From contig JBLGBJ010000008.1 of assembly GCA_047617605.1 (NCBI GenBank), positions 17,866-81,865 of the forward strand: a DNA stretch of 64,000 nucleotides. The letters run 5' to 3'. Made by a program: the position numbers and the translations under genes. Source of the stretch: Pseudohongiellaceae bacterium (lineage in GTDB: Bacteria; Pseudomonadota; Gammaproteobacteria; Pseudomonadales; Pseudohongiellaceae). The first letter of the stretch is position 1, and every line of letters starts with the position of its first letter. The notes under the pieces were generated by a model. That model saw only the letters and a list, made by a program, of their open reading frames with translations, searched no databases and had not been told where the DNA came from. This document shows positions 180 through 48,076 of this stretch, in pieces.

Positions 180-1775
180 TTAACGGGATTCAAGTTGGCT
201 GGCTTCCATCATGATATGAAAAATAACATGTTGTTCCATAACCCCTCTTACTAAATCTGCTCCTGCGCCAATGGCAAAAATAGCAACGTCTTCACCTCCA
301 TGGGTCTCACTCGCCATGGGGACCACTGTTTCGGAATGATAGCCTTTTGCGGTTGTATCAACGTTGGTTAAATCTACTCTGCCGCTGATGTGTATGTCTT
401 CTTCATAAACATCGTCAGCTGAGCCGCTGTCCTCAATCAAGTGAAATCCTGGACCATTGTTGTAACCTAAAGTTGTGTAGGGCAGGCCATCTTCGGCGAG
501 ACTTAGATCTGTCCTTGTTTCACCGGCACTATCAACTCCTACCACCTTGCCTAAAATAGGATTGCCTCGAGCTGGATAGCCAGCGATTGTAAAGACATGA
601 CTATGGTCCGCGGTGACTATGATTAACGTTTCGCTCAAATCAACCATCTCGACAGCAGTTCTTACTGCCTCAGCGAGCTCGATAGTATCCATGAGGGCTC
701 GATTCGGGTTGGCTGCGTGATGGGCATGATCGATACGTCCTGCTTCGACATTCAAGTAGTATCCTTTGGGATTCTTATCAAGCACTTGGATTGCTTTTGC
801 AGTCATCTCACTAAGGCTAGGTTCGCCTGCAGCATCGTTAAGACGATCCACTGTATATTCCATATGTGATGGATCAAACAAGCCTAACAAATGATCAGTA
901 GTTGCTGGATCGATGTCATTAAACTGCTGTCGGTTCCATACATAAGCTGCATTATCATGGCTATTAATCCATTCCTGGCTCAGATCGCGCCCGTCTAGGC
1001 GCTCGCCCTGGCCATTGGTTTCTGGATCGACGCCGCCTGTTCTAGGGAGAAAACTGCGACGTCCTCCGCCCAATGCTACCTCTATGCCATCGGAATTTTC
1101 TACGTTGTTAGAGAACTCAACTAGCTGCCGAGCAATATCTGCACAATCCCCCGCATTGGATAACCCGCTGGCATCACGGTCATCTTCAAAATTTCTGTCC
1201 ATTGAATGGGCATAATTTGCAGCAGGCGTAGCGTGGGTTAAGCGAGCAGTAGAGACTACGCCGGTAGCAAGCCCGCGCATTTCCGCCCGCTCAAGAAAAG
1301 TAAGAGTCTCGTTGCCAGAAACAGAATCACAGTCACCACGAACCACATTCTGATTGACGCTGATTAGGCCGACGTCGGTTTTAATGCCGCTAGCCATCGC
1401 TGACATGGTGCCAGCAGAATCGGGAACTTGACCGTTAGTGTTATAGGTTTTTGATAGGGCTACATTTGGGAAGCTTTCAAAATACAGCTCGTTTTCCTCG
1501 CCGCTTTCGCCACGAAGTTGCCCTTCGAGGATTCGAGCAGCTGTAATTGTTGAGATTCCCATTCCATCACCAACGAATAAAATGACGTTCTTAGCAACCG
1601 CATCAACCGGGATCTGGTTACGTAGGGCTAGATTGCGGCGAACTGTAGCTTGGCCCTCCTGATACCAAGACTCTGGGGTCTCCTGAGCAGTGGTCGTTGG
1701 TAAACTGCACGCGGAGCTCAGGATGATGAGGCTAAGGAGGCTGGATGTAGGAAAGTATTTAGCGCGTTTATTCAT
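180..1775 (-). CDS. phoA: alkaline phosphatase (PhoA family), exported, probable lipoprotein
   Basis: 531 aa ORF. Signal/lipobox LSSACS. Motifs FVGDGMG and the active-site Ser region VPDSAGTMSAMASGIKT, plus metal-ligand region DHAHH and TADHSH, all typical of the alkaline phosphatase family. Confidence 0.9.
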   Translation of the reverse strand: MNKRAKYFPTSSLLSLIILSSACSLPTTTAQETPESWYQEGQATVRRNLALRNQIPVDAVAKNVILFVGDGMGISTITAARILEGQLRGESGEENELYFESFPNVALSKTYNTNGQVPDSAGTMSAMASGIKTDVGLISVNQNVVRGDCDSVSGNETLTFLERAEMRGLATGVVSTARLTHATPAANYAHSMDRNFEDDRDASGLSNAGDCADIARQLVEFSNNVENSDGIEVALGGGRRSFLPRTGGVDPETNGQGERLDGRDLSQEWINSHDNAAYVWNRQQFNDIDPATTDHLLGLFDPSHMEYTVDRLNDAAGEPSLSEMTAKAIQVLDKNPKGYYLNVEAGRIDHAHHAANPNRALMDTIELAEAVRTAVEMVDLSETLIIVTADHSHVFTIAGYPARGNPILGKVVGVDSAGETRTDLSLAEDGLPYTTLGYNNGPGFHLIEDSGSADDVYEEDIHISGRVDLTNVDTTAKGYHSETVVPMASETHGGEDVAIFAIGAGADLVRGVMEQHVIFHIMMEASQLESR

Positions 1776-1790
1776 TGTCTATGACCCAAA

Positions 1791-1831
1791 TGTGATTTAG
1801 TAATGACATGTTATGGCAATTAGTTTACAGG
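1791..1831 (-). promoter_or_regulatory. Pho-box-like array upstream of the alkaline phosphatase gene
   Basis: Minus strand reads CTGTAAA-CTAA-TTGCCAT-AACA-TGTCATT-ACTA-AATCACA. These are 7-nt half-sites phased about every 11 nt and resemble the E. coli CTGTCAT-N4-CTGTCAT PhoB site. They lie 16-56 nt upstream of the ATG. Confidence 0.4.
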
Positions 1832-2003
1832 AAAATGAAAATAAGGACGCTTTGGAGTTTAGTGCTTTAACACCGAGCTACTGCAACCGAATCATGTTTA
1901 TAATTAGGCTCATAAGCACTTACAACTCATTTATGAGACAGGTTGGGCGTGATAGAGTTAGTCTCTGGCTCGAACCGAGCGATAAATTGTCGTTGAAATT
2001 GAT

Positions 2004-2243
2004 ATGAATACTAGAATTACCTACTGCACTTCTTGAAACTACAAGCCAGAAGCAGATCGTGTATCTGCTGAGATTGAGTCGATTACTGGAGTTTCAGCAC
2101 AGCTTGAAGCGGGCTCGGGAGGTGTTTTTAACGTCTTTTTTGGCGACGACTTAGTTTTTTCAAAATCTGAATTCCAGCGCTTTCCGCACCGCGGGGAAAT
2201 TGCAGCTAAGATTAAGCCTTTACTCGAGCACCCAAAACACTAA
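2004..2243 (+). CDS. selW: SelW/Rdx-family selenoprotein, in-frame TGA (2034-2036) read as selenocysteine
   Basis: ATG 2004, TGA 2034-2036, TAA 2241-2243, all in one frame. Translation: MNTRITYCTS-U-NYKPEADRVSAEIESITGVSAQLEAGSGGVFNVFFGDDLVFSKSEFQRFPHRGEIAAKIKPLLEHPKH. CxxU sits in the position of the Rdx CxxC/CxxU redox motif. The GSGG.F.V..G..VFSK....RFP pattern resembles bacterial SelW-like proteins. A hairpin follows the TGA. Confidence 0.75.
2051..2069 (+). promoter_or_regulatory. SECIS-like recoding hairpin
   Basis: Perfect 7-bp stem AGCAGAT (2051-2057) / ATCTGCT (2063-2069) with a 5-nt loop CGTGT. The stem starts 14 nt after the TGA and the loop 21 nt after it, and the loop contains G and U. 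Confidence 0.6.
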
Positions 2244-2302
2244 ATAATTACCATTTTGAGCAAGCTCGTAAAACTTAATTACTTTATCTAGCAGGAAGAC
2301 TC

Positions 2303-2983
2303 TTGGCTGCACGTATTATCGCTATTACTGGTGCCTCAGGGTCTGGGAAAACATACCTTACCAACGGCTTATTTGAATCTCTGCAAAGCCGTGCCACAAA
2401 CTTGGCGGTTATTCGGGAGGAGTCTTATTACCGAGATCAATCTCACCTGCCAATGCAAGAGAGGCTGGGCGTTAATTACGATCACCCAGATAGCTTAGAG
2501 CATGAACTATTAGTAGAGCATCTGCGAAAACTTAAAGCTGGTCAGGCAGTTGAAGTTCCGGAGTATGATTATGTAGTTCACAATCGAAAGTGCGAGACGA
2601 GCACGGTTTCTTCAGGGCAGATAATTTTGGTAGAAGGTATTTTACTGCTCAGCAATCCTCTGCTTCGAGCGCAGTTTGACGCCACATTGTTTGTAGATAC
2701 TCCTCTGGATGTCTGTTTCGCCAGGCGTCTAGCCCGTGATACGGTCGAGAGAGGCCGCACCGAAGAATCTGTGGTGGCCCAATTCGAGACCACAGTAAAA
2801 CCAATGTTTCATCGATTCATAGAGCCAAATAAATGCCATGCCAAACTTCTAATCAGTGGTGAGAAGGCGCGCAGCGCGATGTTAGCAGAGCTGTCAGTGC
2901 ATCTAGAACCTTTGATCAATGAATTCTCATTGGCCTGCGCCTCTCGGCCACCAGATTCATTCCCTCCAGAGGCTCATTCATGA
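2303..2983 (+). CDS. udk: uridine kinase
   Basis: 226 aa. P-loop [10 protein letters not shown] near the N-terminus and NYDHPDS, VEGILL motifs typical of uridine/cytidine kinase. TTG start with AGGAAG 4 nt upstream. Its stop overlaps the nupC-like ATG (ATGA). Confidence 0.9.
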
Positions 2984-4200
2984 GTGCGCTTATTTGTTTA
3001 CTTGGCATTGCCGTAATCTTTGGGATTGGCTATGCCACCTCAGTCCATCGAGCGAGTGTGAATTGGCGCACTGTCGGGTTCGCCTTATTGTTGCAATTCG
3101 GCTTAGGAGGAATAGCGCTTTACCTTCCTTGGGGGGTCACCCTGTTGCAAGCAGTGTCCACTGGTGTGTCCGCGGTGTTGACTAATGCTCAAGACGGAAT
3201 TGAATTTGTTTTCGGCAGCATAGGCTCGTTCGAGCTTGGGTTTATCTTTGCCTTTCATGTTTTGCCGGTTATTGTATTTTTCTCCTCTTTAGTTGCGGTA
3301 CTTTACCATCTTGGAATTATGGGATGGTTAATCAAAGTTATTGGAGGCGCTTTACAAAAACTGCTAAAAACAAGTAAAGCTGAGTCGATGTCTGCAACTG
3401 CGAACATATTTGTTGGGCAAACTGAAGCGCCGCTAATTGTTCGACCTTATATTGCTACTATGACTCGGTCTGAACTTTTTGCAATTATGGTAGGTGGGAT
3501 GGCCACCGTTGCAGGGTCTGTGTTGGCAGGCTATGCCCTATTGGGTGTAGAAATTCACTATTTGCTGGCAGCCAGTTTTATGGCTGCCCCCGGCGGATTC
3601 CTAATGGCAAAACTGATGCTGCCGGAAACCGAGGAGATCGCTAATGAAACCGGTGAAATCGAACTGGAATTTGAAGAGCATGTAAATGTCATAGACGCGG
3701 CCGCTGCAGGTGCTAGCAGTGGGATGACTCTGGCAATCAATGTTGGAGCTATGATTTTGGCGTTCGTGGGCTTAATCGCCTTACTTAATGCGATGCTCGC
3801 ATGGGGTGGTGCGCTAGTGGGTTTTGATGAGCTCTCGCTGGAGCTGGTGCTTGGTTTTTGCTTTCGGCCGCTTGCGTTTCTATTGGGAGTTCCCTGGGGT
3901 GAAACCCAAATAGCTGGCAGTCTTATTGGGCAAAAGCTAGTTTTTAATGAGTTCGTGGCGTTCGTAGCTTTTACCAACCAGATGGAAGTTCTGAGTGACC
4001 ATACTCAAGCTGTAGTCACCTTTGCGCTTTGTGGGTTCGCCAATTTTTCTTCTATTGGCATCATGTTAGGTGGATTGGGGGTAATGGCACCGAATCGCCG
4101 ATCGGATATTGCGGAATTGGGATTGCGTGCGGTCTTCGCTGGATTCATGGCGAATCTAATGAGCGCAGCGATTGCTGGGTTCTTCATTTCATTGACTTGA
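2980..4200 (+). CDS. nupC: concentrative nucleoside transporter (NupC/CNT family)
   Basis: 406 aa polytopic membrane protein. The conserved [14 protein letters not shown] and GFANFSSIG regions are characteristic of NupC-family transporters. Confidence 0.9.
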
Positions 4201-4285
4201 AGGGGATTTAGATTATGAGGATGGCTTTCAAAACTTGGTCGTGATCTCTTCTTACTACTCTCTGCTTTTTTCTTACCCCTGCTCA

Positions 4286-5221
4286 TTACCTTTTTACTAA
4301 ACCTATTTCCTCTAGCCGCTGCTGTAAAAATTCTCCAGCTGTAATAGGAGGGTATTTGGCGCCATTTTGACCCAAGCACTGTGGCAGGCAGCTAAGGTCT
4401 GCTTTGCTATGTGGGTGCAGAAAGAATGGCATAGAATACCGAGACTTATCTTGTTTATGAGGGTTGACCACTCGATGGACAGTTGACGGTAACAACTCGT
4501 TGGTAAGCCGTGACATCATGTCGCCGGTATCTAGTACTATCTCATTAGGGCCGCTTTCTACAGCAAGCCACTTGCCATCATTATCTAATAATTCCAGCCC
4601 TGAATCAGTGGCGCCCAAAAGCAATGTGAGCAAATTAATGTCTGCATGAGGCGCTGCCCGCATAGCACGTCCAGTGTCCAAGCCTTCCACTTTGGGATAA
4701 TGTAACAATCGGTAAATTGAATTGCCATCGCTGACCATTTCATCGAAAAATGTTCTTTTCAAACCGAGCGCATCGCCTACAACTTCTAATAAAGTTTTAC
4801 TCAGGTTTTCTAACTCCCTGTACATTCCGCCAAGAACAGGTTCGAATTCTGGCAGCTCTTTTGGCCAGACATTTTCGGCGTATGTGCCGATGTATTGGCT
4901 AGTTGAACTAAGTGTTTGGCCAACATGCCAAAATTCTTTTAGATCTGCATGCGGATTGCCTGCCGCGTTCTCTCGCCCAAATGCTGTGTACCCTCTTGCG
5001 CCGCCACTGCCGCTGTCGTACTGAAGTTTCGTTTCAACAGGCAGTTCAAATAGCCGCTGGACTAAGGAATAGGTTTTAGCCATTTCTTCCGGCGATATAC
5101 CGTGATCGCGAATAACGACGAATCCGTATTCCTTGAGGCCTTCAAACAATTCGCGAGTGAACGTCTCTCGATCTGCTTCTAGGTCCAGTAGGCTTAAATT
5201 TTTTATTGCGTCGGACGTCAT
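4286..5221 (-). CDS. 2-oxoglutarate/Fe(II)-dependent oxygenase (isopenicillin N synthase-like family)
   Basis: 311 aa. HxD...H facial triad candidates (PHADINLLTLL ... STVHRV), an N-terminal non-haem dioxygenase-like region, and an RxS-type motif (SRYSMPFF). Its ATG overlaps the cdd stop by 1 nt (TAATG). Confidence 0.8.
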   Translation of the reverse strand: MTSDAIKNLSLLDLEADRETFTRELFEGLKEYGFVVIRDHGISPEEMAKTYSLVQRLFELPVETKLQYDSGSGGARGYTAFGRENAAGNPHADLKEFWHVGQTLSSTSQYIGTYAENVWPKELPEFEPVLGGMYRELENLSKTLLEVVGDALGLKRTFFDEMVSDGNSIYRLLHYPKVEGLDTGRAMRAAPHADINLLTLLLGATDSGLELLDNDGKWLAVESGPNEIVLDTGDMMSRLTNELLPSTVHRVVNPHKQDKSRYSMPFFLHPHSKADLSCLPQCLGQNGAKYPPITAGEFLQQRLEEIGLVKR

Positions 5222-5610
5222 TAGCTTAAGTGCTGCTCTTGGTTAAATGAATGCGGCAGTAGATCGTCAATTGTCGATTCTGTCCGCTTTTCTGAATCAC
5301 ACACAGACAGTACCGTGGCATGAGATGCAAATTCTCGAATAACTTGGCGGCATGCGCCACAGGGCGGTGTGGGAGTCTCGGTTGGTGTGTAGATGACTAC
5401 CGCTGTAATCGATTTAGCGCCTTTTGCTACGGCGGAGCAAATAGCATTCCGTTCTGCGCATTGAGTCATTCCAAAGGAGACATTCTCTACGTTGACACCA
5501 ATATGAACGTTACCCGCCTCGTCTAAAACTGCAGCTGCAACTCTGAATTGGCTGTAGGGGGCATAGCAGTGCTGTATTGCGCCTTTGGCTTGTTTGATTA
5601 GATCCTGCAT
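5221..5610 (-). CDS. cdd: cytidine deaminase (small tetrameric type)
   Basis: CAERNAI zinc/catalytic motif and PCGACRQ second zinc motif. The track ORF runs to 5685, but the ATG at 5610 (MQDLIKQAK...) gives the usual length of about 129 aa. The start is uncertain. Confidence 0.85.
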   Translation of the reverse strand: MQDLIKQAKGAIQHCYAPYSQFRVAAAVLDEAGNVHIGVNVENVSFGMTQCAERNAICSAVAKGAKSITAVVIYTPTETPTPPCGACRQVIREFASHATVLSVCDSEKRTESTIDDLLPHSFNQEQHLS

Positions 5611-5689
5611 ACTCGTATTTTGCCTAATCGAGACCATGATTGCCATGCTATATGGCATTTTCTTGCAAAGATGGGATGGGAACAATACC

Positions 5690-7479
5690 TCAAACTAAGA
5701 GGAAAGGTTTTTCCCCCTGCAGACTGTAGTTTATTTCTGATACTAGCTCTTCGTAGCGGAATGGTTTTGACACAAAGCCATTCATGCCGGCATTTGAACG
5801 GTCCGTTTTGGCGAAATTTGCTGACATGGCTATGACCGGAATATTGGCGTTTCTTATAGCGCTCGCTCTTATCGTCTGTGTTGCCGTAAGTCCATCCATC
5901 TCGGGCATTTGAATATCCATGAGAATCAGGTCGAGGTCGTTATTACTAGCGTATTCAACGGCTTCAGTGCCATTTGTAACGGCGACTACATTGTGGTCGT
6001 CTTTTTCTAGGATCTTTGCCAAAACTATTCTATTAACCGCATTGTCATCGACCACATGAATATCTAACTTAGGCAATAGAAAAGTGGCCTCATGATGTTC
6101 ATGTTTCTCGTTCGCGGCTGCTTCGGTCAGTGGTAGATAGAGTGTAAAACATGTCCCTTTTCCTAACTCAGATTCGAATGAAATGTCCCCGGCCATTGCA
6201 TCGCTCAATCTTTTAACAATGGCTAAGCCAAGTCCAGAGCCACCATATTTTCGAGTGGTACCTGCATCGGCTTGGGCATAGGGTTCGAAGAGCGTAGCCT
6301 GTGTTCCGGCGGGTATTCCTATTCCTGTATCTAGCACTTCAACTTTCAACTGCTTGAACTCTTGGCTTAGAGATACCGAAACAGAGCCTTCTTGAGTTAA
6401 TTTAACGGCATTGCCAATCAGATTAATTAGAATTTGCCGTAACCGGGATTGGTCCCCCTGATAGTTTCAGGCAATTGATCCGCCACTTTGTAACTAATGT
6501 TCAGTTTTTTAGAATAGGACTTAAATACAAAAGGAGAAAATGTTTGGTCAATGAACCTTTTTAAGTTAAATAGCCGGCTTTATAGAATCACTTTGCCTGA
6601 TTCTATAGACGAGATGTCCAAAATATTATTAATGAGTTCTAGTAGAGTTTCACTGGTCTGAACTATGACATTTTTGAAAGTTTGCCGCTGGTCTGGGTCG
6701 GTTGCCTTATTCAGTATTCGGGAAGCGCCAATGATACCGTTTATGGGCGTTCTAAGCTCATGACTCATACTTACAAGAAATACGGTCTTTGCTTTTTCTG
6801 AGTCTACGGCTGTCTTTTCGGCTAATCGCCGAATCGTAATTTCTTCTCGAAGCGAAGAGACCGTATTCTGAAGGTTTCTTTGTGCAACGGATTGAGAGCG
6901 CTTAAATAAAGTTGTGGCGGCCGTAAGAACCAGTACTATAATGCTCGCGTCACTCGCAAAGATAAAGCCGCTATTGGTATTCCTAGCCTGATTCACTAAG
7001 TTAGTTAAGCTATATTGAATTGTTAGGATGTTGTTGGCTTCCAAAAGCCAAACGCTAAGTAAGGTCACAATGCAGATCAGGCACCAATACCAGCCAGTCC
7101 GTGTACCTGATAATAAAATCGACATTGGTGCAATTGGGAACAACCAAAAAATATGAGTTCCAATCAAACCGTAAAGCGCAAGTAAGCGAACAATAACAAG
7201 CCAGTAAACTAATAGGGTAAAATTTGCAGCCCAGAATCTCTGATTAAAAAAGGCCTGCGCCTATACGCCGAGATTGATTACGCTTAGTCCCGCGGCAATA
7301 AATACATTCTCAGACGGAGAACCAAGCTGCCAATTTAACAGCATCATGAAGCATGCAATCGGATTTAGAATTAAAACAGAGACTGAGAAGGCGCGCCTTT
7401 TTCTAAGCTCGGCTGGCTCGGCATCAAAAGGATCGAGTCCGCCATCTTACAAAAATAGGATATGTTTTTTAAAACGCAC
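5690..7479 (-). pseudogene. hybrid sensor histidine kinase/response regulator, disrupted paralog of the gene at 41694-43469
   Basis: Track fragments 6580-7167 (membrane region plus HisKA, SHELRTP) and 5690-6349 (HATPase_c GGSGLGLAIV plus receiver domain) are parts of one gene. It is colinear with the intact paralog from a GTG at 7479. In-frame stops occur at 7447-7449 (TAA), 7261-7263 (TAG) and 6580-6582 (TAA). A 1-nt frameshift lies at the C5 run 6463-6467, inside the conserved D..RLRQILINLIGNAVK N-box region. Confidence 0.85.
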
Positions 7480-8657: not shown

Positions 8658-9194
8658 CTAGTGAAGGTGGCTTAAATCTACAAAGCCGTCTTTGTTAGGC
8701 ATTTGAATTTGTGTTAAAGACTCTTTGTTCAAAATAGTCTTTTCTTCGATGATATTATTGAGAAATAATACGTAGGCTGTGACTTGATAGACTTCCTCGT
8801 TGCTCAATGATTTTGGAGCATTTGCGGGCATAGCGCGGCGAATAAAGTCAAACACCGTGCTGGCATGAGGCCAGTAGCTGCCGACAGTGCGCAGCGGGCT
8901 GCTCTCAGAGTGCATGTCTCCGCCTACCAGTCTTGTATTACCGGAAACGCCTTCACCATTTGCGGCGTGGCACGCAGCGCACTTAAGTTCGAACACCGCC
9001 TTTCCAGTCTTTGCTGTGCCGCTGCCAGGCGGAAGGCCGCTTCCATCTGGGCCTGCTACCAAGTCGAAGTCAATAAGCTGAGATTCACTAATTGCTTGGC
9101 CTAACTTCACAGTCTGAGCTTGGCTGTTAGACAGTAAAAGGAATACTGCACTGACTAACAAAAAAACAAATTTAAAAGCTTTAGGCATATACAT
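8658..9194 (-). CDS. monohaem c-type cytochrome subunit of sulfite dehydrogenase (SorB/SoxD-like)
   Basis: 178 aa. Signal peptide and a single CAACH haem-binding motif. Its start overlaps the 3' end of the upstream molybdopterin subunit gene. Confidence 0.75.
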   Translation of the reverse strand: MYMPKAFKFVFLLVSAVFLLLSNSQAQTVKLGQAISESQLIDFDLVAGPDGSGLPPGSGTAKTGKAVFELKCAACHAANGEGVSGNTRLVGGDMHSESSPLRTVGSYWPHASTVFDFIRRAMPANAPKSLSNEEVYQVTAYVLFLNNIIEEKTILNKESLTQIQMPNKDGFVDLSHLH

Positions 9195-10449
9195 TTTTAA
9201 TCTCTCCCGCGGGACTGATGCCCCAGCTTTGAACGCCGTGGTAATGATAAAAGCTGATTAAGCCGCGTTCGGCCAGCAGAGCATCTCGGCTGGGTTGAAT
9301 GTTGCCCGCACTGTCGGTGGCTCGGCTTTGTAAAACGGCGCTGCTTCCATTCCACTGCCAGGGAATGCTGAACCTGACTAGAGCTTTGTCCGCTTGCGGC
9401 GATTCGATTATAGCATCTGCCCAGCTGCGGCCGCCGTCTGCACTAACTTCGACTTTTTTGATGCTCCCAGCACCTGACCAGGCGATACCGGTGACTTTGT
9501 AGACGCCTTTTTGAGGGAGTGACATTTGTCCGGAAGGCGATGTTATAAGTGACTTGGCTCCCATCGGGAAGGTAAATTGTAAGCTTCGTCGATCCGCCAT
9601 GGTATCTGTGTACTTACTAGTCTCGTCTCTAAATTGGCTCGCCTGGCGAGTTAGCTTTAACTGAGTAAGCCATTTAACGCTGATGTTTCCTTCCCAACCC
9701 GGGACAAATAGGCGCATCGGATAGCCTTGCTCTGGCCGAATAGGTTCGCCATTCTGATAGAGGGCGATCAAAACATCATCAAGTGCTTTGTCCAGTGGTA
9801 TCGAGCGGCCCATGCTTGCGCCGTCGGCTCCGACGGCAGCAATCCATTTGGCCTGCGCTTTAATTCCGGCTTCATCAAGTAAGGTTGATAAGAGAATTCC
9901 TGTCCACTGCGCACATGAAACCAAGCCATGCATACTTTGCGCTGAGCCATCGACAGGAGTGTCGCCAAATAAAGTGCCACTGTTGCCTGAGCATTCTAGA
10001 AAATAGGTCTTGCTGACCATCGGGTATTTTAAAAGGTCTTCATACGAAAACACCAAGGGTTGATTAACCAGGCCATTGATAACCAGTTTATGCTGAGCCG
10101 GGTCGATGGCCGGTACGCCAGAATGATGGCGCTCAAAATGCAGGCTGTTCGGAGTAATCGTGCCTTGTAAATGTTGCAGCGGGGAACGCGATGCGCCGCC
10201 ACCAGGATAAAGAGGGTCTGGAGTTCCTGCCATTCTTTGTATCTGACCGGTAAAGGGTGAGGGACTGCCATAAGCGCTAGTTCCTGGTCCTGGCTGCTGT
10301 GACCACTGGGGAATCTTAAGTTTGAGCCCCGCATCTGCTGATAGCGCATTAGTGGCCAGCGCTGAGCCAAGCCCTCCTAATCCTACTTTAAGTAAATGAC
10401 GTCGGTTTATCAGGCCATTGCCGGCCACTCTATCCAATTTATCACTCAT
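9181..10449 (-). CDS. sulfite dehydrogenase / SoxC-SorA family molybdopterin subunit, Tat-exported
   Basis: Twin-arginine signal (INRRHLLKVGLGG). Sulfite-oxidase-type Moco domain (FLECSGNS with the conserved Cys) and a C-terminal dimerisation domain. The track ORF starts at a TTG at 10482; I prefer the ATG at 10449 (MSDKLDR...). Confidence 0.85.
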   Translation of the reverse strand: MSDKLDRVAGNGLINRRHLLKVGLGGLGSALATNALSADAGLKLKIPQWSQQPGPGTSAYGSPSPFTGQIQRMAGTPDPLYPGGGASRSPLQHLQGTITPNSLHFERHHSGVPAIDPAQHKLVINGLVNQPLVFSYEDLLKYPMVSKTYFLECSGNSGTLFGDTPVDGSAQSMHGLVSCAQWTGILLSTLLDEAGIKAQAKWIAAVGADGASMGRSIPLDKALDDVLIALYQNGEPIRPEQGYPMRLFVPGWEGNISVKWLTQLKLTRQASQFRDETSKYTDTMADRRSLQFTFPMGAKSLITSPSGQMSLPQKGVYKVTGIAWSGAGSIKKVEVSADGGRSWADAIIESPQADKALVRFSIPWQWNGSSAVLQSRATDSAGNIQPSRDALLAERGLISFYHYHGVQSWGISPAGEIKNVYA

Positions 10450-11184
10450 AAATTTGCCATTTTTGTTGAGTTGCTGATCCAATCACTATAATCGAGAACT
10501 GATGATAAGTGCACAATAGATATTATGGGTGATAGGTCAAGGTTCTTAGGGTGCCAAGAGAGTAAGGACAATGCAAATACTTATTCATAGGCTTTGGCTT
10601 ACATTTATTTTGGGGCTGGGAAGTGCCCTCGGGGGCATCGTCAATCAGTCCCCGCCACGTCCTAATTCAACGTAATTCGATGAACCAAACCATGAGGTTA
10701 ACTTTACTTAGCCAAGGATGCCTAAAGAGGCTCGAAATGAAAACAAAGTCGGTCATCATGAAATCAAGGGCTACGCTATCACGATCACTATTGCTGCTTA
10801 GCACGCCTCATTATGTATCTTTTGCAGCAAAATCAGTGGTCCCAATGCTTATCCGCTTTCCTGCGTCTTAGAAAATCAAGAAATACTCATTCTAAATATT
10901 GAACTGGCACCCAGCCAAGCTTCTGCGCACGTCGTTGTTTGCGTATTAGAGGACACCGTCGAAACGCAGTCGCGAGCTGCGCCGCTGAGTTATTAGGGCC
11001 AGGTGAGACGTTTTATGAAACACTCCAGGGGATTCATCAAGTGTCACGCAATGCTAGTGATAGCGGCCAGATTAAGTTTTTGCGGCATATATTAAAAACA
11101 GTAGAGCAGGGGATCAGCGTGCCGGTAGAGTCGCGGTTAACTGGTGTTTTTTTTCAATGCTGCCCCTTTGACTTTTTCTGATGC

Positions 11185-33767: not shown

Positions 33768-34166
33768 TTGAGCGGTGAAGTACACTTAGAAAAACTGCTG
33801 GCTTTTTTGCAGCCGAAGTTGCTGGCAGACGAGTTTGTTTTTTGTTCTAGCGAAACAATGAGTTTAGCCGAGGCTTTAGAGTTGGAGCCAGTTGCCACCT
33901 ATCGAGAAGAAGAAGGGCTTAGTCTCGTCTTAACTAAAAGAGCCGCTATGCAAGCGGGTTTCGATTTTTCCCTGGTCTTTAAATGTATCACCCTTACAGT
34001 CCATTCCAGTCTTGATTCTGTCGGACTAACTGCTGCGGTTGCCAATCGCTTATCAAATAATAGTATCAGTGCCAATGTAGTGGCGGCATATTATCATGAT
34101 CATGTTTTTGTCCCATTATCCAAAGCTGAACAAGCCCTTCAGTTACTCACTGATTTTCAGAACTAA
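33768..34166 (+). CDS. ACT-domain-like small protein (DUF2241/ACT_7-like)
   Basis: 132 aa with a TTG start. The pattern L..LL..L.P.L...EFVFCS ... VAAYYHDHVFVP resembles small ACT-domain proteins. Recalled from memory, not verified. Confidence 0.55.
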   Translation: MSGEVHLEKLLAFLQPKLLADEFVFCSSETMSLAEALELEPVATYREEEGLSLVLTKRAAMQAGFDFSLVFKCITLTVHSSLDSVGLTAAVANRLSNNSISANVVAAYYHDHVFVPLSKAEQALQLLTDFQN

Positions 34167-44054: not shown

Positions 44055-45044
44055 TTAAGCGCTAATAGCCCGCTTGACTAAGTTCTGCATAAGCGGAACC
44101 TTAAATCCATTGTGTGCCAACTCTCGCGCTCCCTCAGTCGCCATTTCTCCAACGGACTCAGCGGTTGCTGAATTCTTGGCTTGGCCTTTAATAGCATTTT
44201 CTACGTTGGTAACCCGACGTGGGGTACATTGAACAGCACCGCAGACTATTCTTGAGTCTTCGATGTTGCCAGCGTTCACTTTGAACGCTGCCGCCACGCT
44301 CACTAAAGAAAAATCCCAGACATTTCTATCGGCGACTTTCTCAAAGTAGAAGGTGGCATTTGCCCACGTGGCAGGAATTCTTACCGAGGTCAGTATTTCG
44401 CCAGGTCTGAGCACTGTGGTGTTTACAATGTCGATAGCTGGACCTACAAAGTAGTCCTGTGCAGCAACCTCTCTTTCACTGTTTAGGCTGCGAATAACCA
44501 TCGTCGCATCTAAGGCCACCAAAGCAGGTGCTGTATCTGATGCCGATGCTGCTACGCAGCGACTGGCTTCAAACAAAGAATGCTCGCGGTTCATACCTTG
44601 AGGGGTGTCGGCGTAGCAAAGGTTCCCGCCAGCCCTGTAGCAAGATAGTCCGCGGCGGTAGTACCAGCAGCGTACATCTTGAGATATGTTTCCACCGAGG
44701 GTGCCGATGTTTCGTATTTGCGGGCTAGCGACAACAGCGGCAGCATCTGAAAGAACAGAGTAGCGCTCTTTTATAAGCGGGTTGTTTGTAATTTCAGTTA
44801 GCGTCGAGAGAGCGCCTATTTCGATACCGTTTCCAGTATCGCGAATTCCGCGCATCGATTCTATGGCGCTCAAGTCGATCAAGGCATCTGTTGCCTTGGC
44901 GCGATCTTTGAGCCAGCCGTAGGTGTCTTGACCGCCGCCGACTAACCAACCTCTCTCTGCGAGTCGGTCAGCAATAGCCAGAGCGTCTTCTACCTGTACC
45001 GGCTGGTACAGTTCCATATTTGGCATAACGTCATGTGATGGCAT
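44055..45044 (-). CDS. xanthine dehydrogenase-family FAD-binding subunit (PaoB/CoxM-like)
   Basis: 329 aa. FAD-binding PCMH-type region (LVGGGQD, RNIGTLGGNI) and a CO dehydrogenase flavoprotein C-terminal-like domain. Confidence 0.85.
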   Translation of the reverse strand: MPSHDVMPNMELYQPVQVEDALAIADRLAERGWLVGGGQDTYGWLKDRAKATDALIDLSAIESMRGIRDTGNGIEIGALSTLTEITNNPLIKERYSVLSDAAAVVASPQIRNIGTLGGNISQDVRCWYYRRGLSCYRAGGNLCYADTPQGMNREHSLFEASRCVAASASDTAPALVALDATMVIRSLNSEREVAAQDYFVGPAIDIVNTTVLRPGEILTSVRIPATWANATFYFEKVADRNVWDFSLVSVAAAFKVNAGNIEDSRIVCGAVQCTPRRVTNVENAIKGQAKNSATAESVGEMATEGARELAHNGFKVPLMQNLVKRAISA

Positions 45045-45056
45045 TTTTAGCTAACC

Positions 45057-47492
45057 TCAGAATGTATTGGTTTTAAGAGACTTGGAGCTGTAAGACTTGC
45101 CAGCCAAGTGATTAATGATCATATCCGTCGTTGTTGGCGCGGTATTGAATAGATGACCATCCAGCGCATGTGAAATTGCACTAGCGAGCGCAGCAGCAGC
45201 AGCACCTTGAGTTGGTTCACCTATACCTCGACCTCCCGTCGGGTTCTGTGGGTCAGGAATGTTTACTGCGCCCATTTTCGTCTCAACCGGCACATCCATA
45301 TTGGTTGGTGGCTTGCTTTGATAAAGACCGGTATTTGCTGGTAGGCCATTTTGTGGATCGTAGACGTGACGTTCTAATGCCGTCATGCCTATTCCCCAGA
45401 CCATGCCGCCACGCATCGCGTTATCGAAATTCTTTGGATGAACAACAGTTCCGCAGTCAGCAACTGCGGCGTAATCCAAGATTTCAAATTTGCCAGTGCC
45501 GGTATCCATTTCAATTTCGCAAAAGCCAACCAGAATTCCTGGTGGTTGGCCTTGGCCTGGAATCTTGTCTTTGGCGACACCAATCAAACCTGTTCCAGCT
45601 AGCCCTTGAACAGCACGCTGGGTGATTGGATTGATATCGTCCGGGTACTCATTGCCGCTGAATTTACCGCCTAGATCGATAGCTCTCTGAGCGGCTTCAG
45701 CATAGGTCATGCCTTGTTGCGGGTTTGAGCTTAAATAGACTCTCTCGTCGCCAATCATATAATCATCAGCGGAACCGCCAAGATCATTGGCCGCGATTTC
45801 TTTGAGCTTGCTAATGGCATCTTGCGCCGCTACCCAGTTAGTTCGGGTATGCGTGAAGATGGTATTAGAGCCACCTTGTCCTGAACTATGTGGCAAGTGA
45901 TTGTCGGTGCGTCCTCTAAGGATTTCACAACGTTCCCACGGTACTTGTAGTGCTTGCGCCGCCGCTCGGCAGGTGCCCGCATAGGAATAAGTTCCTAAAT
46001 TACCGACACCGCTGTGAATATAGAGCTTGCCGTCGGTGCCAATGCGCACCAATCCGTCATAGCCACGACCACCAGCACCGTGATAGCCAATGCCAACTCC
46101 GATGCCGCGAACTTTATTGCCGTCGCGTTTTGGTTTCGCAAGCTTTTCATCCCAGCCGAATAATCTTTGGCCATGTTCCAATGCTTCCTTTACAAAGGCA
46201 CTGGTCACCGGCCCCTGGCTGCCGCCTTGGAATCCGTCACTGTTTATTGCATTAACCTTTCTAAAAGCAACGCGGTCCATGCCAATAGCATTTGCCGCTT
46301 TGTCAGCCATAGGGGCTAATACTGCAGCCATCTCGTTCTGTCCCGGGCCGCGCTGGGCACCCCGCGGGGTTGTATTGGTATAGACTGAGATATGTCTAAA
46401 GCGCATTGCTTCTGGCTGGTATGCAACGGTTACGTGTTGAGCAGATGAATTGCCACTGCCGCCACCGGTCATGCCACCATCGTTGACGATGATAAGGTCT
46501 ACAGCAGACACTTTACCGTCTGCTTTGACGCCCATCTTCATCCAGCCTTGCATGCCTGAGCGAGCCGAACCGATATAGAATTCTTGCTCACGTGTGATAC
46601 GCAGCTGAACGGGACGGTTTAAAACCTTAGCAAAATTTCCGGTAATTGCCATATAGGGGTAGGGGCCGATTTTGGAGCCAAAGCCACCGCCGGTTGCCTC
46701 GTTGATGAACACCAGATCACTTGGATCGATGTTCAACATACGGGCAAGGCCATTATCATTGGCACTTTGGCTTTGTGATGAGCCATGGAAATAGCACTTT
46801 CCATTTTCCCAATAAGCCATGCCAGTGCGTGCTTCCAATGAGTGGTGTGGATAGCCCATCGTCACGAAAGGCTCTTCGATTATAGTGGCTGCTTCTGCAA
46901 AGCCGGCTTCTAAATCGCCAAATTCCCATTCGCGAGTAAACTCTGCGCCGACCGGTTCTTTGCCAGCTTTAAAAGCATCAATAGCTGCTTGCGTCCATTT
47001 GATATCTTTTATCTCTGCGCCCACGATAGGGGTTCCCTCAGGACCTTCTTCGCGAGTACGAACAAGAGTATTTCCCTCTGGATAAGCATTTGGGCCGCCT
47101 GGCGCGAGGCTATCTAAGGGGTCTACGCAAAATGCTCGACGCTCGTATTGAATCTTAATTTTGGCGATTGCTGATTCTGCGATTTCTTCTGTGGTTGCAG
47201 CGACCGCTAGGATCGGCTGACCAACGTAGGTGATGTACTCAGATGCCAATGCAGGGTTTGCCGGTGGTGGCACTGGAGGTAGGTCGTCAGCAGTAAAAAT
47301 ACCAACTACACCATCCATACGCATCGCTTCAGACGCGTCTATGCTAATTACGCGGCCGCTAGGCATCGGGCTAGTTAATAATCTGGCAAAGACCATACCT
47401 TCTTTTTTGTAGTCTTCGGCGTATTTAATCTCTCCAGTGACTTTTCCGGGCACGTCGGGTGGGATGAAATCAAAACCTATATGAGTATTCAT
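45057..47492 (-). CDS. xanthine dehydrogenase/aldehyde oxidase-family molybdopterin-binding large subunit (PaoC-like)
   Basis: 811 aa. a/b hammerhead N-terminus and Moco-binding signatures (GGGFGSK, the GxGEP-type motif GIGEPT near the C-terminus). Confidence 0.9.
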   Translation of the reverse strand: MNTHIGFDFIPPDVPGKVTGEIKYAEDYKKEGMVFARLLTSPMPSGRVISIDASEAMRMDGVVGIFTADDLPPVPPPANPALASEYITYVGQPILAVAATTEEIAESAIAKIKIQYERRAFCVDPLDSLAPGGPNAYPEGNTLVRTREEGPEGTPIVGAEIKDIKWTQAAIDAFKAGKEPVGAEFTREWEFGDLEAGFAEAATIIEEPFVTMGYPHHSLEARTGMAYWENGKCYFHGSSQSQSANDNGLARMLNIDPSDLVFINEATGGGFGSKIGPYPYMAITGNFAKVLNRPVQLRITREQEFYIGSARSGMQGWMKMGVKADGKVSAVDLIIVNDGGMTGGGSGNSSAQHVTVAYQPEAMRFRHISVYTNTTPRGAQRGPGQNEMAAVLAPMADKAANAIGMDRVAFRKVNAINSDGFQGGSQGPVTSAFVKEALEHGQRLFGWDEKLAKPKRDGNKVRGIGVGIGYHGAGGRGYDGLVRIGTDGKLYIHSGVGNLGTYSYAGTCRAAAQALQVPWERCEILRGRTDNHLPHSSGQGGSNTIFTHTRTNWVAAQDAISKLKEIAANDLGGSADDYMIGDERVYLSSNPQQGMTYAEAAQRAIDLGGKFSGNEYPDDINPITQRAVQGLAGTGLIGVAKDKIPGQGQPPGILVGFCEIEMDTGTGKFEILDYAAVADCGTVVHPKNFDNAMRGGMVWGIGMTALERHVYDPQNGLPANTGLYQSKPPTNMDVPVETKMGAVNIPDPQNPTGGRGIGEPTQGAAAAALASAISHALDGHLFNTAPTTTDMIINHLAGKSYSSKSLKTNTF

Positions 47493-48076
47493 GCTAATTG
47501 CCCCGAGGCGCGCAGGACGCCATTTAGATAATGTTCATAAGCGCCGCAGCGACAGAGATTACCTGAAAGTGCCTGTCGGGCTTGTGCTTTGGTGGGTTTT
47601 GGGTTGCTGTTCAAAAGAGCAACCGCCGACATCACTTGCCCCGGAGTGCAAAATCCACACTGTGGTGCATTTTCAGCAATAAAGGCTTGCTGAACAGCGT
47701 GCAGAGTTCCGTCGGCAGATTTAACTCCCTCTATCGACATTATCGCTTTGTCTTTAACGTTGTGGGTTAGGACCGAGCAAGAGTAATTTGGCTCGCCGTC
47801 CAGTAGCACTGTGCAGGCACCACATTCGCCTCTATTACAGCCTATTTTGGTTCCGGTTAGATCCAGTTTGTAGCGAAGTGTATAAGCAAGAGTTTCCGAT
47901 GGCATTACATCGACAGGGCGGCTGCGTCCATTAACATTGAGTGTTATCAAGCGTTCGGCCGCAGTCTGTCCCGGTTGGGCATTTGCAGCGAGGTAGAATC
48001 CAGTGCCAGTAGTTGCAGCAGCACCGGAGAAAATGACCCCCTTGATAAAACGTCGGCGAGTAAGTTTTGAGTTCAC
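47489..48076 (-). CDS. (2Fe-2S)-binding small subunit with Tat signal (PaoA-like)
   Basis: 195 aa with a GTG start. Twin-arginine TRRRFIKG. Plant-type ferredoxin cluster CNRGECGACTV and second cluster CGFCTPG...CRCG. Overlaps the large-subunit start by 4 nt. Confidence 0.9.
   Translation of the reverse strand: MNSKLTRRRFIKGVIFSGAAATTGTGFYLAANAQPGQTAAERLITLNVNGRSRPVDVMPSETLAYTLRYKLDLTGTKIGCNRGECGACTVLLDGEPNYSCSVLTHNVKDKAIMSIEGVKSADGTLHAVQQAFIAENAPQCGFCTPGQVMSAVALLNSNPKPTKAQARQALSGNLCRCGAYEHYLNGVLRASGQLA

What the first reader, a model, noticed from the sequence alone, without database searches (positions are those of the whole stretch)
2004..2243. Unlisted SelW/Rdx-like selenoprotein gene with in-frame UGA and a SECIS-like hairpin
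The apparent gap between the alkaline phosphatase and udk genes holds one continuous 80-codon frame if TGA 2034-2036 is read through. It translates as MNTRITYCTS-[TGA]-NYKPEADRV...GSGGVFNVFFGDDLVFSKSEFQRFPHRGEIAAKIKPLLEHPKH.

The TGA sits exactly where Rdx-family proteins (SelW, SelT, SelH) carry the second residue of their CxxC/CxxU redox motif, giving YC-T-S-U here. The sequence downstream of the TGA keeps SelW-like conservation, which random post-stop sequence would not.

A perfect 7-bp hairpin (2051-2069, loop CGUGU) begins 14 nt after the UGA. That is the geometry expected for a bacterial SECIS element bound by SelB.

Standard ORF callers miss this gene, and the six-frame track did. If it is real, the organism must encode the full Sec machinery.
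Basis: partly seen in the sequence, partly recalled or inferred. Interest (0 to 1): 0.8.

Follow-up and report, generated by a model that had tools for sequence, protein, structure and literature searches.

The report
Uncalled bacterial SelW-like selenoprotein gene
The apparent gap between two genes holds a real 79-codon gene for a small SelW-like redox protein whose in-frame UGA is almost certainly read as selenocysteine with the help of a hairpin just downstream. This family is already known as the commonest selenoprotein of marine bacteria, so it is a correct catch and not a new kind of thing.

Summary
Window 2004-2243 (+) is one frame, ATG to TAA, with a single in-frame TGA at 2034-2036.

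- **Family:** with U replaced by C, the product matches Pfam Rdx (E=7.7e-15) and TIGR02174 above their curated cut-offs. A confident model has the bacterial SelW-related fold (TM 0.80-0.86), with C-T-S-U between strand 1 and helix 1.
- **Conservation of the TGA:** 79 of 80 related genome loci from many phyla carry TGA at this codon. One carries TGC.
- **Translation past the TGA:** downstream dN/dS is 0.04-0.13. TGA ends 11 of 41 ordinary genes in the window, so the code is standard.
- **SECIS hairpin (2051-2069, loop CGUGU):** it meets the published bacterial SECIS criteria. Across 82 sequences it shows strong covariation and an almost invariant NGU codon in the loop. It is more stable than synonymous recodings.

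Not tested: selA, selB, selC and selD were not found in the window or within 10 kb of either end, and the rest of this Pseudohongiellaceae MAG could not be searched.

SelW-like CxxU proteins are already described as the most abundant marine bacterial selenoprotein family. This is a new, unannotated member of a known kind, of modest interest.

The parts
2004..2243 (+). SelW-like (Rdx family) selenoprotein gene: 78 standard sense codons, one Sec codon and a TAA stop
   Evidence: Continuous frame. Pfam Rdx E=7.7e-15; TIGR02174 above cut-off. Predicted fold matches bacterial SelW-related structures at TM 0.80-0.86. Orthologs keep the same frame.
2004..2006 (+). Start codon ATG, 10 codons upstream of the TGA
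   Evidence: In 63 of 83 unique related sequences an in-frame start lies exactly 10 codons before the TGA, and 79 of 83 use ATG. There is no canonical Shine-Dalgarno motif upstream in the window (gttgaaattgatATG), although 61 of 83 relatives have one.
2025..2036 (+). CxxU redox motif: TGC ACT TCT TGA, giving Cys-Thr-Ser-Sec
   Evidence: The motif lies between strand 1 (residues 3-8) and helix 1 (14-28) of the model. [YFH]-C-x-x precedes the TGA in all 87 TGA-bearing sequences.
2034..2036 (+). In-frame UGA, inferred selenocysteine codon
   Evidence: TGA at the homologous codon in 79 of 80 genome loci and TGC in one. 75 CxxW(=TGA) against 36 CxxC representatives. dN/dS downstream is 0.04-0.13. 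TGA is an ordinary stop in 11 of 41 window genes.
2051..2069 (+). Bacterial SECIS hairpin: 7-bp stem (2051-2057 with 2063-2069) and 5-nt apical loop
   Evidence: The MFE structure of 2034-2075 is exactly this hairpin, at -8.1 kcal/mol. Across 82 distinct sequences, 86% of cells are paired against 67% in shuffles (0/500) and 21-53% in slid registers, and the covariation score is 0.49 against 0.15. Real hairpins average -7.5 kcal/mol against -3.2 for synonymous recodings.
2058..2062 (+). SECIS apical loop CGUGU, with conserved G2059 (+23), U2060 (+24) and U2062 (+26)
   Evidence: G at +23 is 100% conserved, U at +24 is 94% and U at +26 is 99% across 83 sequences. The codon is NGU in 78 of 83 although the amino acid varies: Ser AGU 36/36, Arg CGU 27/31, Gly GGU 15/16. 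Residue +8 is S, R or G in 68 of 75 Sec forms against 12 of 36 Cys forms, p=9e-10.
2241..2243 (+). Stop codon TAA
2303..4200 (+). Downstream same-strand genes (PRK/uridine kinase-like 2303-2983; CNT nucleoside transporter 2980-4200). Possible co-transcription; context only.
   Evidence: Pfam annotations of identical contigs. There is a 60-nt spacer and no terminator-like site between 2243 and 2303. The neighbourhood is conserved in only 12-18 of 80 loci.

Best explanation
Window 2004-2243 (+) encodes a 79-residue SelW-like (Rdx family) protein with a thioredoxin-like fold and a Cys8-Thr-Ser-Sec11 redox motif. The UGA at 2034-2036 is not a stop here. While the ribosome sits on it, the hairpin at 2051-2069 acts as a bacterial SECIS element. 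Its loop CGUGU starts 21 nt after the UGA and presents the conserved G and U. The hairpin recruits SelB-GTP-Sec-tRNA(Sec), selenocysteine is inserted, and translation runs on to the TAA at 2241-2243. The product is most likely a small thiol/selenol oxidoreductase that cycles through a Cys8-Sec11 selenenylsulfide. Shown here: family and fold membership, conservation of the TGA, translation downstream of it, and an RNA-level hairpin signal at a fixed distance. Inferred: that the inserted residue is Sec, that SelB binds the hairpin, and the redox activity. The physiological substrate is unknown.
For: (1) Family. Pfam Rdx 55.3 bits against a cut-off of 22.6; TIGR02174 46.8 against 34.2. The AlphaFold model has pLDDT 87.8 and order strand1-helix1-strand2-strand3-strand4-helix2. 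The top 21 PDB matches are all bacterial SelW-related proteins at TM 0.80-0.86.

(2) The TGA is conserved. A query starting after the codon recovered 80 genome loci, of which 79 have TGA and 1 has TGC, always after [YFH]Cxx. The 'W' printed by some callers was TGA in the DNA in all 4 cases checked.

(3) Translation continues past the TGA. dN/dS is 0.04-0.13 against L001, L002, L008 and L009, and most differences fall at third codon positions. There is no in-frame start codon after the TGA.

(4) Recoding is local. TGA ends 11 of 41 ordinary genes in the window, including the next two genes.

(5) SECIS. The hairpin meets all four criteria of the published model (PMC13188914): 5-nt loop, 7-bp stem, G at loop position 2 followed by U, 21-nt spacing, and MFE -8.1 kcal/mol. 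In 65 of the 78 sequences with a qualifying hairpin, out of 83 unique sequences, the loop starts at +21 or +22. Covariation is strong. The loop codon is NGU in 78 of 83 whatever the amino acid. Real hairpins are more stable than synonymous recodings, with 28 of 74 loci at p<=0.05 and the window at p=0.047. Residue +8 is restricted to S/R/G only in Sec forms.

(6) Literature. [quoted passage not shown]
Against: - No selA, selB, selC or selD was found in the window, within 10 kb of either end, or in the flanks of 87 related loci. Sec-decoding capacity of this particular MAG is therefore unverified.
- The window's hairpin alone is only marginally more stable than shuffled sequence.
- There is no clear Shine-Dalgarno motif upstream of the ATG in the window.
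- The 79/80 figure comes from the loci most similar to a Sec-form query, so it overstates the Sec fraction of the whole family.
- There is no experimental evidence of selenium incorporation.
Confidence: 0.9

Rival explanations
1. The UGA is decoded, but as something other than selenocysteine. One route would be Cys inserted by a SelB-dependent non-canonical tRNA. Another would be near-cognate read-through, so the product would be a CxxC or CxxW protein.
For: The Sec machinery was not found in the sequence available. Nothing computed here identifies the residue that is inserted. That natural variants of the Sec system inserting other residues have been described is my own recollection and was not checked here.
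Against: The family alternates only between TGA and Cys codons at this column. The hairpin matches the SelB-type SECIS consensus. Sec is the documented reading for this family (PMC1088965, PMC2398784). Genome-wide reassignment to Trp or Gly is excluded, because TGA terminates 11 of 41 genes in the window.
Confidence: 0.05
2. The gene is a pseudogene: a former Cys-form Rdx gene inactivated by a nonsense mutation, with the hairpin present by coincidence.
For: The hairpin's stability alone is not significant in the single sequence. The gene is uncalled in public annotation.
Against: The same TGA occurs in 79 of 80 loci across many phyla. dN/dS downstream is 0.04-0.13, with an excess of third-position changes. 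Stem covariation and the invariant NGU loop codon show selection on the RNA.
Confidence: 0.02
3. The TGA is a sequencing or assembly error, or only the part downstream of it is expressed as an independent small protein, as JGI called it (53 aa) in a relative.
For: JGI called a 53-aa fragment starting at a GTG in L003 and L004.
Against: The neighbouring window proteins are found as exact matches on 18-19 independently assembled contigs. The three such contigs read here (L005, L090, L091) have the same gene layout, and L005 has the identical Rdx gene with its TGA. In the window there is no ATG, GTG or TTG in frame after the TGA. The upstream 10 codons and the Cys are conserved together with the TGA in all relatives. 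A fragment without strand 1 and the redox motif would lack the family's active site.
Confidence: 0.01

Closest known systems
Bacterial SelW-like selenoproteins (CxxU), as catalogued in the Sargasso Sea and GOS selenoproteomes (PMC1088965, PMC2398784); models Pfam PF10262 Rdx and TIGR02174 CXXU_selWTH
   Same: Same domain, length (about 75-80 aa) and CxxU motif position. The in-frame UGA is followed by a coding-region SECIS hairpin with a G in a small apical loop. The source is marine bacterial. The family is mostly Sec forms with few Cys homologs (PMC1794560), matching the 79/80 TGA seen here.
   Different: Nothing essential differs. This copy comes from an uncultured Pseudohongiellaceae MAG and is absent from its gene calls. 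In its lineage it sits in a conserved alkaline phosphatase / udk / CNT transporter neighbourhood.
Solved bacterial 'selenoprotein W-related' Rdx proteins: 2FA8 (Agrobacterium), 2OBK (P. fluorescens), 2OKA (P. aeruginosa), 2OJL (Bordetella), 3DEX (Streptomyces SAV_2001), 2P0G (Vibrio cholerae)
   Same: Same fold, with TM 0.80-0.86 and rmsd 1.0-2.9 A to the model. The sequence-level match to 3DEX has E=2.6e-4 and aligns the motif.
   Different: At least 3DEX has Cys at this position (YCTQC in the alignment), so it is not a selenoprotein. Sequence identity is only 20-30%.
Mammalian selenoprotein W (2NPB) and MIEN1/C17orf37 (2LJK)
   Same: Same Rdx superfamily and thioredoxin-like fold with a CxxU or CxxC motif after strand 1. 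TM is 0.63-0.70, and the sequence hit to MIEN1 has E=4.7e-4.
   Different: Eukaryotic SelW uses a 3'-UTR SECIS bound by SBP2 and eEFSec, not a coding-region hairpin bound by SelB (established knowledge; PMC1088965 Fig. 7). The relationship is distant, and this gene is not an ortholog.
E. coli fdhF-type bacterial SECIS and the bSECISearch consensus model (summarised in PMC13188914)
   Same: A hairpin lies immediately downstream of the UGA inside the coding sequence. It has a small apical loop with G followed by U in the first positions, spacing within 16-37 nt and MFE <= -7.5 kcal/mol.
   Different: The stem sequence is unrelated. This family has its own fixed register, with the loop at +22 to +26 built on an NGU codon. 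SelB binding was not tested.

Membership tests
Rdx / SelW-like family (PF10262, TIGR02174) | Significant profile match above the curated threshold | tested here: met
   PF10262: 55.3 bits against a cut-off of 22.6, E=7.7e-15, covering profile positions 3-73 of 74. TIGR02174: 46.8 bits against 34.2.
Rdx / SelW-like family (PF10262, TIGR02174) | CxxC/CxxU motif in the loop between strand 1 and helix 1 | tested here: met
   C8-T-S-U11. The model has strand 1 at residues 3-8 and helix 1 at 14-28.
Rdx / SelW-like family (PF10262, TIGR02174) | Thioredoxin-like fold in the order strand1-helix1-strand2-strand3-strand4-helix2 | tested here: met
   Predicted model with pLDDT 87.8 and pTM 0.71. The top 21 Foldseek PDB hits are all SelW-related proteins at TM 0.80-0.86. 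This rests on a prediction, not a solved structure.
NCBIfam NF041051 SelTWH_Campy (equivalog) | Score at or above the equivalog cut-off of 88 bits | tested here: not met
   78.5 bits, below 88. The gene is related to this subgroup but is not a member of it.
Bacterial selenoprotein gene (SelB/SECIS-dependent UGA recoding) | In-frame UGA aligned with Cys in homologs (Sec/Cys pair) and conserved among orthologs | tested here: met
   79 TGA and 1 TGC among 80 genome loci. 75 CxxW(=TGA) against 36 CxxC representatives. TGA confirmed in the DNA in 4 of 4 'W' cases checked.
Bacterial selenoprotein gene (SelB/SECIS-dependent UGA recoding) | Coding sequence downstream of the UGA under protein-level selection | tested here: met
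   dN/dS is 0.04-0.13. Differences at codon positions 1/2/3 are, for example, 2/2/17 and 1/2/17.
Bacterial selenoprotein gene (SelB/SECIS-dependent UGA recoding) | bSECIS model: apical loop of 3-9 nt, upper stem of 4-16 bp, G in the first two loop positions, 16-37 nt from UGA to loop, MFE <= -7.5 kcal/mol (PMC13188914) | tested here: met
   Loop 5 nt (CGUGU), stem 7 bp, G at loop position 2 followed by U, spacing 21 nt, MFE -8.1 kcal/mol.
Bacterial selenoprotein gene (SelB/SECIS-dependent UGA recoding) | The hairpin is maintained by selection (covariation beyond what the coding sequence requires) | tested here: met
   Covariation score 0.49 against 0.15 in shuffles (0/500) and at most 0.12 in slid registers. 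Synonymous-recoding control: -7.5 against -3.2 kcal/mol. NGU codon in 78 of 83. S/R/G restriction only in Sec forms, p=9e-10.
Bacterial selenoprotein gene (SelB/SECIS-dependent UGA recoding) | The genome encodes selA, selB, selC (tRNA-Sec) and selD | not testable with these tools
   None were found in the window, within 10 kb of either end or in the flanks of related loci.
Bacterial selenoprotein gene (SelB/SECIS-dependent UGA recoding) | Selenium demonstrated in the protein | not testable with these tools
   This needs 75Se labelling or mass spectrometry.

The most novel reading that the evidence does not exclude
In the Pseudohongiellaceae and related gammaproteobacterial lineage, the SelW-like selenoprotein may be a functional part of the pyrimidine-nucleoside salvage cluster it sits in: udk, CNT nucleoside transporter, cytidine deaminase and a 2OG-Fe(II) oxygenase. 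It lies 60 nt upstream of udk on the same strand, with no terminator between them. It could serve as the redox partner of one of these enzymes. That would give bacterial SelW-like proteins, whose function is still unknown, their first concrete biochemical context.
Probability: 0.08. Interest if true: 0.5.

Novelty: new member of a known kind. Interest (0 to 1): 0.25.

Why it matters
The practical lesson concerns annotation. A gene from the most abundant marine selenoprotein family is treated in one of three wrong ways: left out entirely (JGI and NCBI calls on contigs identical to the window), truncated to a 53-aa fragment, or translated with Trp at the active site. All three distort selenoproteome and trace-element inventories of marine MAGs.

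The finding also marks this Pseudohongiellaceae lineage as a probable user of selenocysteine.

The comparative analysis adds one small point. This family has a fixed SECIS register, with an NGU codon at +22 to +24 in the apical loop. That register restricts the encoded residue to Ser, Arg or Gly in Sec forms only, so it gives a simple sequence rule for finding these genes. None of this changes what is known about how Sec is decoded.

Tried and rejected
- **Sec machinery.** ARAGORN found no tRNA in the window and Rfam gave no hit at gathering thresholds. Inspecting all ORFs of 300 aa or more showed no SelA, SelB or SelD. tblastn with E. coli SelA, SelB and SelD, recalled from memory and used only as probes, plus ARAGORN, against the window and 87 loci gave only one weak hit (25% identity to SelB, in L035), probably another translation GTPase. 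Pfam annotations for 10 kb beyond both window ends showed nothing relevant. A blind search of the large protein database with E. coli Sel proteins was considered and dropped, because the hits nearest E. coli would fill the list and could not be tied to this MAG.
- **Other selenoprotein genes in the window.** Six-frame scans for TGA-interrupted ORFs recovered only this gene. The other candidates are antisense shadows or ordinary ORFs that start after the TGA, such as 33768-34166.
- **Genome-wide UGA reassignment.** Rejected.
- **Single-sequence fold statistics as evidence for the SECIS.** Not significant, so comparative tests were used instead.
- **Functional clue from gene neighbourhood.** No neighbour is shared across the family. 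The largest 'cluster' is an antisense shadow ORF in high-GC genomes.
- **Literature.** A search for Pseudohongiella together with selenocysteine found nothing.

Full report
**Observation.** The region between the alkaline phosphatase gene (180-1775, minus strand) and the PRK/uridine-kinase-like gene (2303-2983, plus strand) contains one continuous frame on the plus strand. It runs from ATG at 2004-2006 to TAA at 2241-2243 and is interrupted only by TGA at 2034-2036. The translation is MNTRITYCTS*NYKPEADRVSAEIESITGVSAQLEAGSGGVFNVFFGDDLVFSKSEFQRFPHRGEIAAKIKPLLEHPKH. The hairpin is as described: AGCAGAU at 2051-2057, loop CGUGU at 2058-2062, AUCUGCU at 2063-2069. Its stem begins 14 nt after the UGA and its loop 21 nt after it. 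No ATG, GTG or TTG occurs in this frame after the TGA, and the ORF listing finds no ORF of 30 aa or more there.

**Family and fold.** With U replaced by C, the protein matches Pfam Rdx (PF10262) at E=7.7e-15, scoring 55.3 bits against a gathering score of 22.6 over almost the whole model. It also matches TIGR02174 CXXU_selWTH at 46.8 bits against a cut-off of 34.2. It falls short of the narrower equivalog NF041051 (78.5 bits against 88). An AlphaFold2 model built from a 70-sequence alignment, for P0001, which is 94% identical to the window protein, has pLDDT 87.8. Its order is strand 1 (residues 3-8), helix 1 (14-28), strands 2-4 and helix 2, with the CxxU motif in the loop between strand 1 and helix 1. 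The top 21 Foldseek matches in the PDB are all bacterial 'selenoprotein W-related' proteins (2FA8, 2OBK, 2OKA, 2OJL, 3DEX, 2P0G) at TM 0.80-0.86. MIEN1 and mouse SelW follow. Sequence search of the PDB gives 3DEX and 2LJK.

**Is the TGA conserved?**
- The word-indexed protein search found only three relatives. Two (94% and 90% identical) carry 'W' at residue 11. The third is a 53-aa C-terminal fragment that JGI named 'selT/selW/selH-like putative selenoprotein'.
- In the DNA, the 'W' is TGA in both full-length relatives.
- The fragment's contig L003 is 192 kb and syntenic, with alkaline phosphatase, Rdx, PRK, CNT transporter, 2OG oxygenase and cytidine deaminase in the same order. Just upstream and in frame it has ATG AAG ATA ACG ATT GTC TAT TGC ACC GCC TGA AAC TAC.
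- An exhaustive phmmer search gave 157 representatives. In the motif column, 75 read CxxW, 36 read CxxC, and 35 start after the motif, 26 of them at the same residue as the JGI fragment. Two more distant 'W' members were checked, and both have TGA.
- To avoid bias at the codon itself, I searched one genome per species with an alignment of residues 12-72 only. Of the 80 best loci, 79 have TGA immediately before the match and one (L067, Spirochaetota) has TGC. [YFH]-C-x-x precedes the codon in every case. In 63 of 83 unique sequences an in-frame start lies exactly 10 codons upstream.
- These loci span Gammaproteobacteria, Desulfobacterota, Acidobacteriota, Planctomycetota, Chloroflexota, Verrucomicrobiota and others, and include the cultured Desulfospira joergensenii DSM 10085.
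- Because the 80 loci are those most similar to a Sec-form query, 79/80 overstates the Sec fraction of the whole family. It agrees with the published remark that SelW-like proteins have few Cys homologs (PMC1794560).

**Is the part after the TGA translated?** Against the four closest relatives (L001, L002, L008, L009), differences in codons 12-79 fall at positions 1/2/3 as 2/2/17, 1/4/13, 1/2/17 and 3/5/19. dN/dS is 0.04-0.13. This is protein-level purifying selection on sequence that could not be translated if the UGA terminated. TGA is an ordinary stop in this organism: it ends 11 of 41 long ORFs in the window, including the two genes immediately downstream, and no real gene is split by an in-frame TGA. 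Recoding is therefore local and not a change of genetic code.

**The hairpin.** A recent review (PMC13188914, Fig. 2) gives the bacterial SECIS model as four criteria: an apical loop of 3-9 nt on an upper stem of 4-16 bp; a G in the first two loop positions, usually followed by G or U; 16-37 nt between the UGA and the loop; and MFE <= -7.5 kcal/mol. The window element has a 5-nt loop (CGUGU), a 7-bp stem, 21-nt spacing and MFE -8.1 kcal/mol, and the MFE structure of 2034-2075 is exactly this hairpin. Taken alone this is weak evidence: z is -1.2 on 42 nt, -2.2 on 29 nt and -0.1 on 68 nt. The comparative evidence is strong, in five ways.
1. Among 83 unique TGA-bearing sequences, 78 have a perfect-stem hairpin that meets the geometry, and in 65 of those the loop starts 21 or 22 nt after the UGA. 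The stem sequences are quite different between lineages, for example AGCAGAU/AUCUGCU, GGCCGAC/GUCGGCC, GCCACC/GGUGGC and CUUCC/GGGAG.
2. On an ungapped alignment of 82 distinct sequences, the window's seven pairs are formed in 86.1% of cells. Column shuffles give 67.0% (0 of 500 reach the observed value), and registers slid by 1-3 nt give 21-53%. The covariation score is 0.488 against 0.147 for shuffles and at most 0.121 for slid registers. There are 98 cells with changes on both sides against 31 expected.
3. The eighth codon after the UGA encodes Ser (36), Arg (31) or Gly (16), yet it is NGU in 78 of 83 sequences: AGU 36/36, CGU 27/31, GGU 15/16. G at +23 is invariant and the wobble U at +24 is 94% conserved, where other wobble positions are 33-63%.
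4. When codons 1-15 after the UGA are recoded synonymously with each locus's own codon usage, the mean best hairpin energy rises from -7.5 to -3.2 kcal/mol. 28 of 74 loci reach p<=0.05, and the window sequence gives -7.0 against -2.0 (p=0.047).
5. At the protein level, residue +8 is S, R or G in 68 of 75 Sec-form representatives but in only 12 of 36 Cys-form representatives (Fisher p=9e-10). The RNA signal constrains the protein only where a UGA has to be recoded.

**Organism and annotation.** The neighbouring CNT transporter is identical to proteins of NCBI MAGs labelled Pseudohongiellaceae bacterium (Gammaproteobacteria, Pseudomonadales). On JGI/NCBI contigs that carry exact copies of the window's neighbouring proteins, the stretch holding this gene has no gene call.

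**What could not be shown.**
- No tRNA, Rfam family or Sel protein was found in the window, within 10 kb of either end, or in the flanks of the related loci.
- The window contains no second selenoprotein candidate.
- The window gene has no clear Shine-Dalgarno motif, whereas 61 of 83 relatives have one.
- No terminator-like site separates the gene from udk, 60 nt downstream. The promoter-like matches do not exceed chance.

**Function.** The family's CxxU motif and thioredoxin-like fold point to thiol/selenol oxidoreductase chemistry, as the literature proposes (PMC1088965), but no substrate is known. Neighbour analysis found no partner shared across the family. The alkaline phosphatase / udk / CNT / 2OG-oxygenase context recurs in only 12-18 of 80 loci, all from the gammaproteobacterial lineage, so it may simply be inherited synteny.

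**Comparison with what is known, and verdict.** Bacterial SelW-like CxxU selenoproteins with coding-region SECIS hairpins were described in 2005. [quoted passage not shown] The window gene meets every family feature that could be tested. The gene is a new, unannotated member of a known kind. My confidence that it is a genuine Sec-encoding gene is about 0.9, and the remaining doubt is the unverified Sec machinery and the lack of experimental data. Interest is modest (0.25). The value lies in correcting annotation and in the clean family-specific SECIS rule, not in new biology.

Noticed in passing
window 5690-7167 (-): A sensor kinase appears split into two ORFs with a gap of about 230 nt: a HisKA-only ORF (6580-7167) and an HATPase_c plus response-regulator ORF (5690-6349). 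The same split is called on the contigs that share the window's genes (L005, L090, L091). It could be a genuinely split hybrid kinase or a conserved frameshift or pseudogene.
   Followed up: no
L003 10001-10162; L001 179-418; L002 441-680; L005 1797-2323: Public pipelines handle this gene family in three different wrong ways. Some give no call at all (JGI and NCBI on contigs identical to the window). JGI gives a 53-aa C-terminal fragment starting at an internal GTG. ENA gives a full-length call with Trp at the Sec codon. In the exhaustive search, 75 of 152 short representatives carry this 'W' and 35 are truncated.
   Followed up: yes
A4 columns 4-9 (window 2037-2042); representatives: The two residues after the active-site position differ by form. 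Sec forms are mostly U-N-Y (52 of 75) and Cys forms mostly C-G-Y or C-G-F (21 of 36). In the DNA, the base after the UGA is A in 87% of TGA forms. This could reflect UGA-context effects on recoding or termination, or a structural adaptation to Sec.
   Followed up: partly
window 180-5685 and L003 8297-13560: A conserved gene block surrounds the Rdx gene in the Pseudohongiellaceae-related lineage (12-18 of 80 loci). It runs: alkaline phosphatase, Rdx, PRK/uridine kinase, CNT nucleoside transporter, 2OG-Fe(II) oxygenase, cytidine deaminase. The arginine succinyltransferase (ast) genes lie on the far side of the phosphatase.
   Followed up: partly
L025-L087, about 90 nt upstream of the TGA, minus strand: In 30 high-GC loci a long antisense ORF of 100 aa or more overlaps the Rdx gene. 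It looks like a shadow ORF caused by GC-rich codon usage, not a gene, but an ORF caller could pick it instead of the interrupted Rdx frame.
   Followed up: no
window 44055-48076 (-) and 59236-60450 (+): The window holds a three-subunit molybdenum hydroxylase (xanthine dehydrogenase-type) cluster. The assignment is by eye from the ORF translations and was not checked against a profile library. A sulfite-oxidase-like Mo enzyme with a cytochrome c partner lies at 8658-10482, and MoeA at 59236-60450; both are supported by Pfam annotations of identical contigs. None of them contains an in-frame TGA.
   Followed up: no
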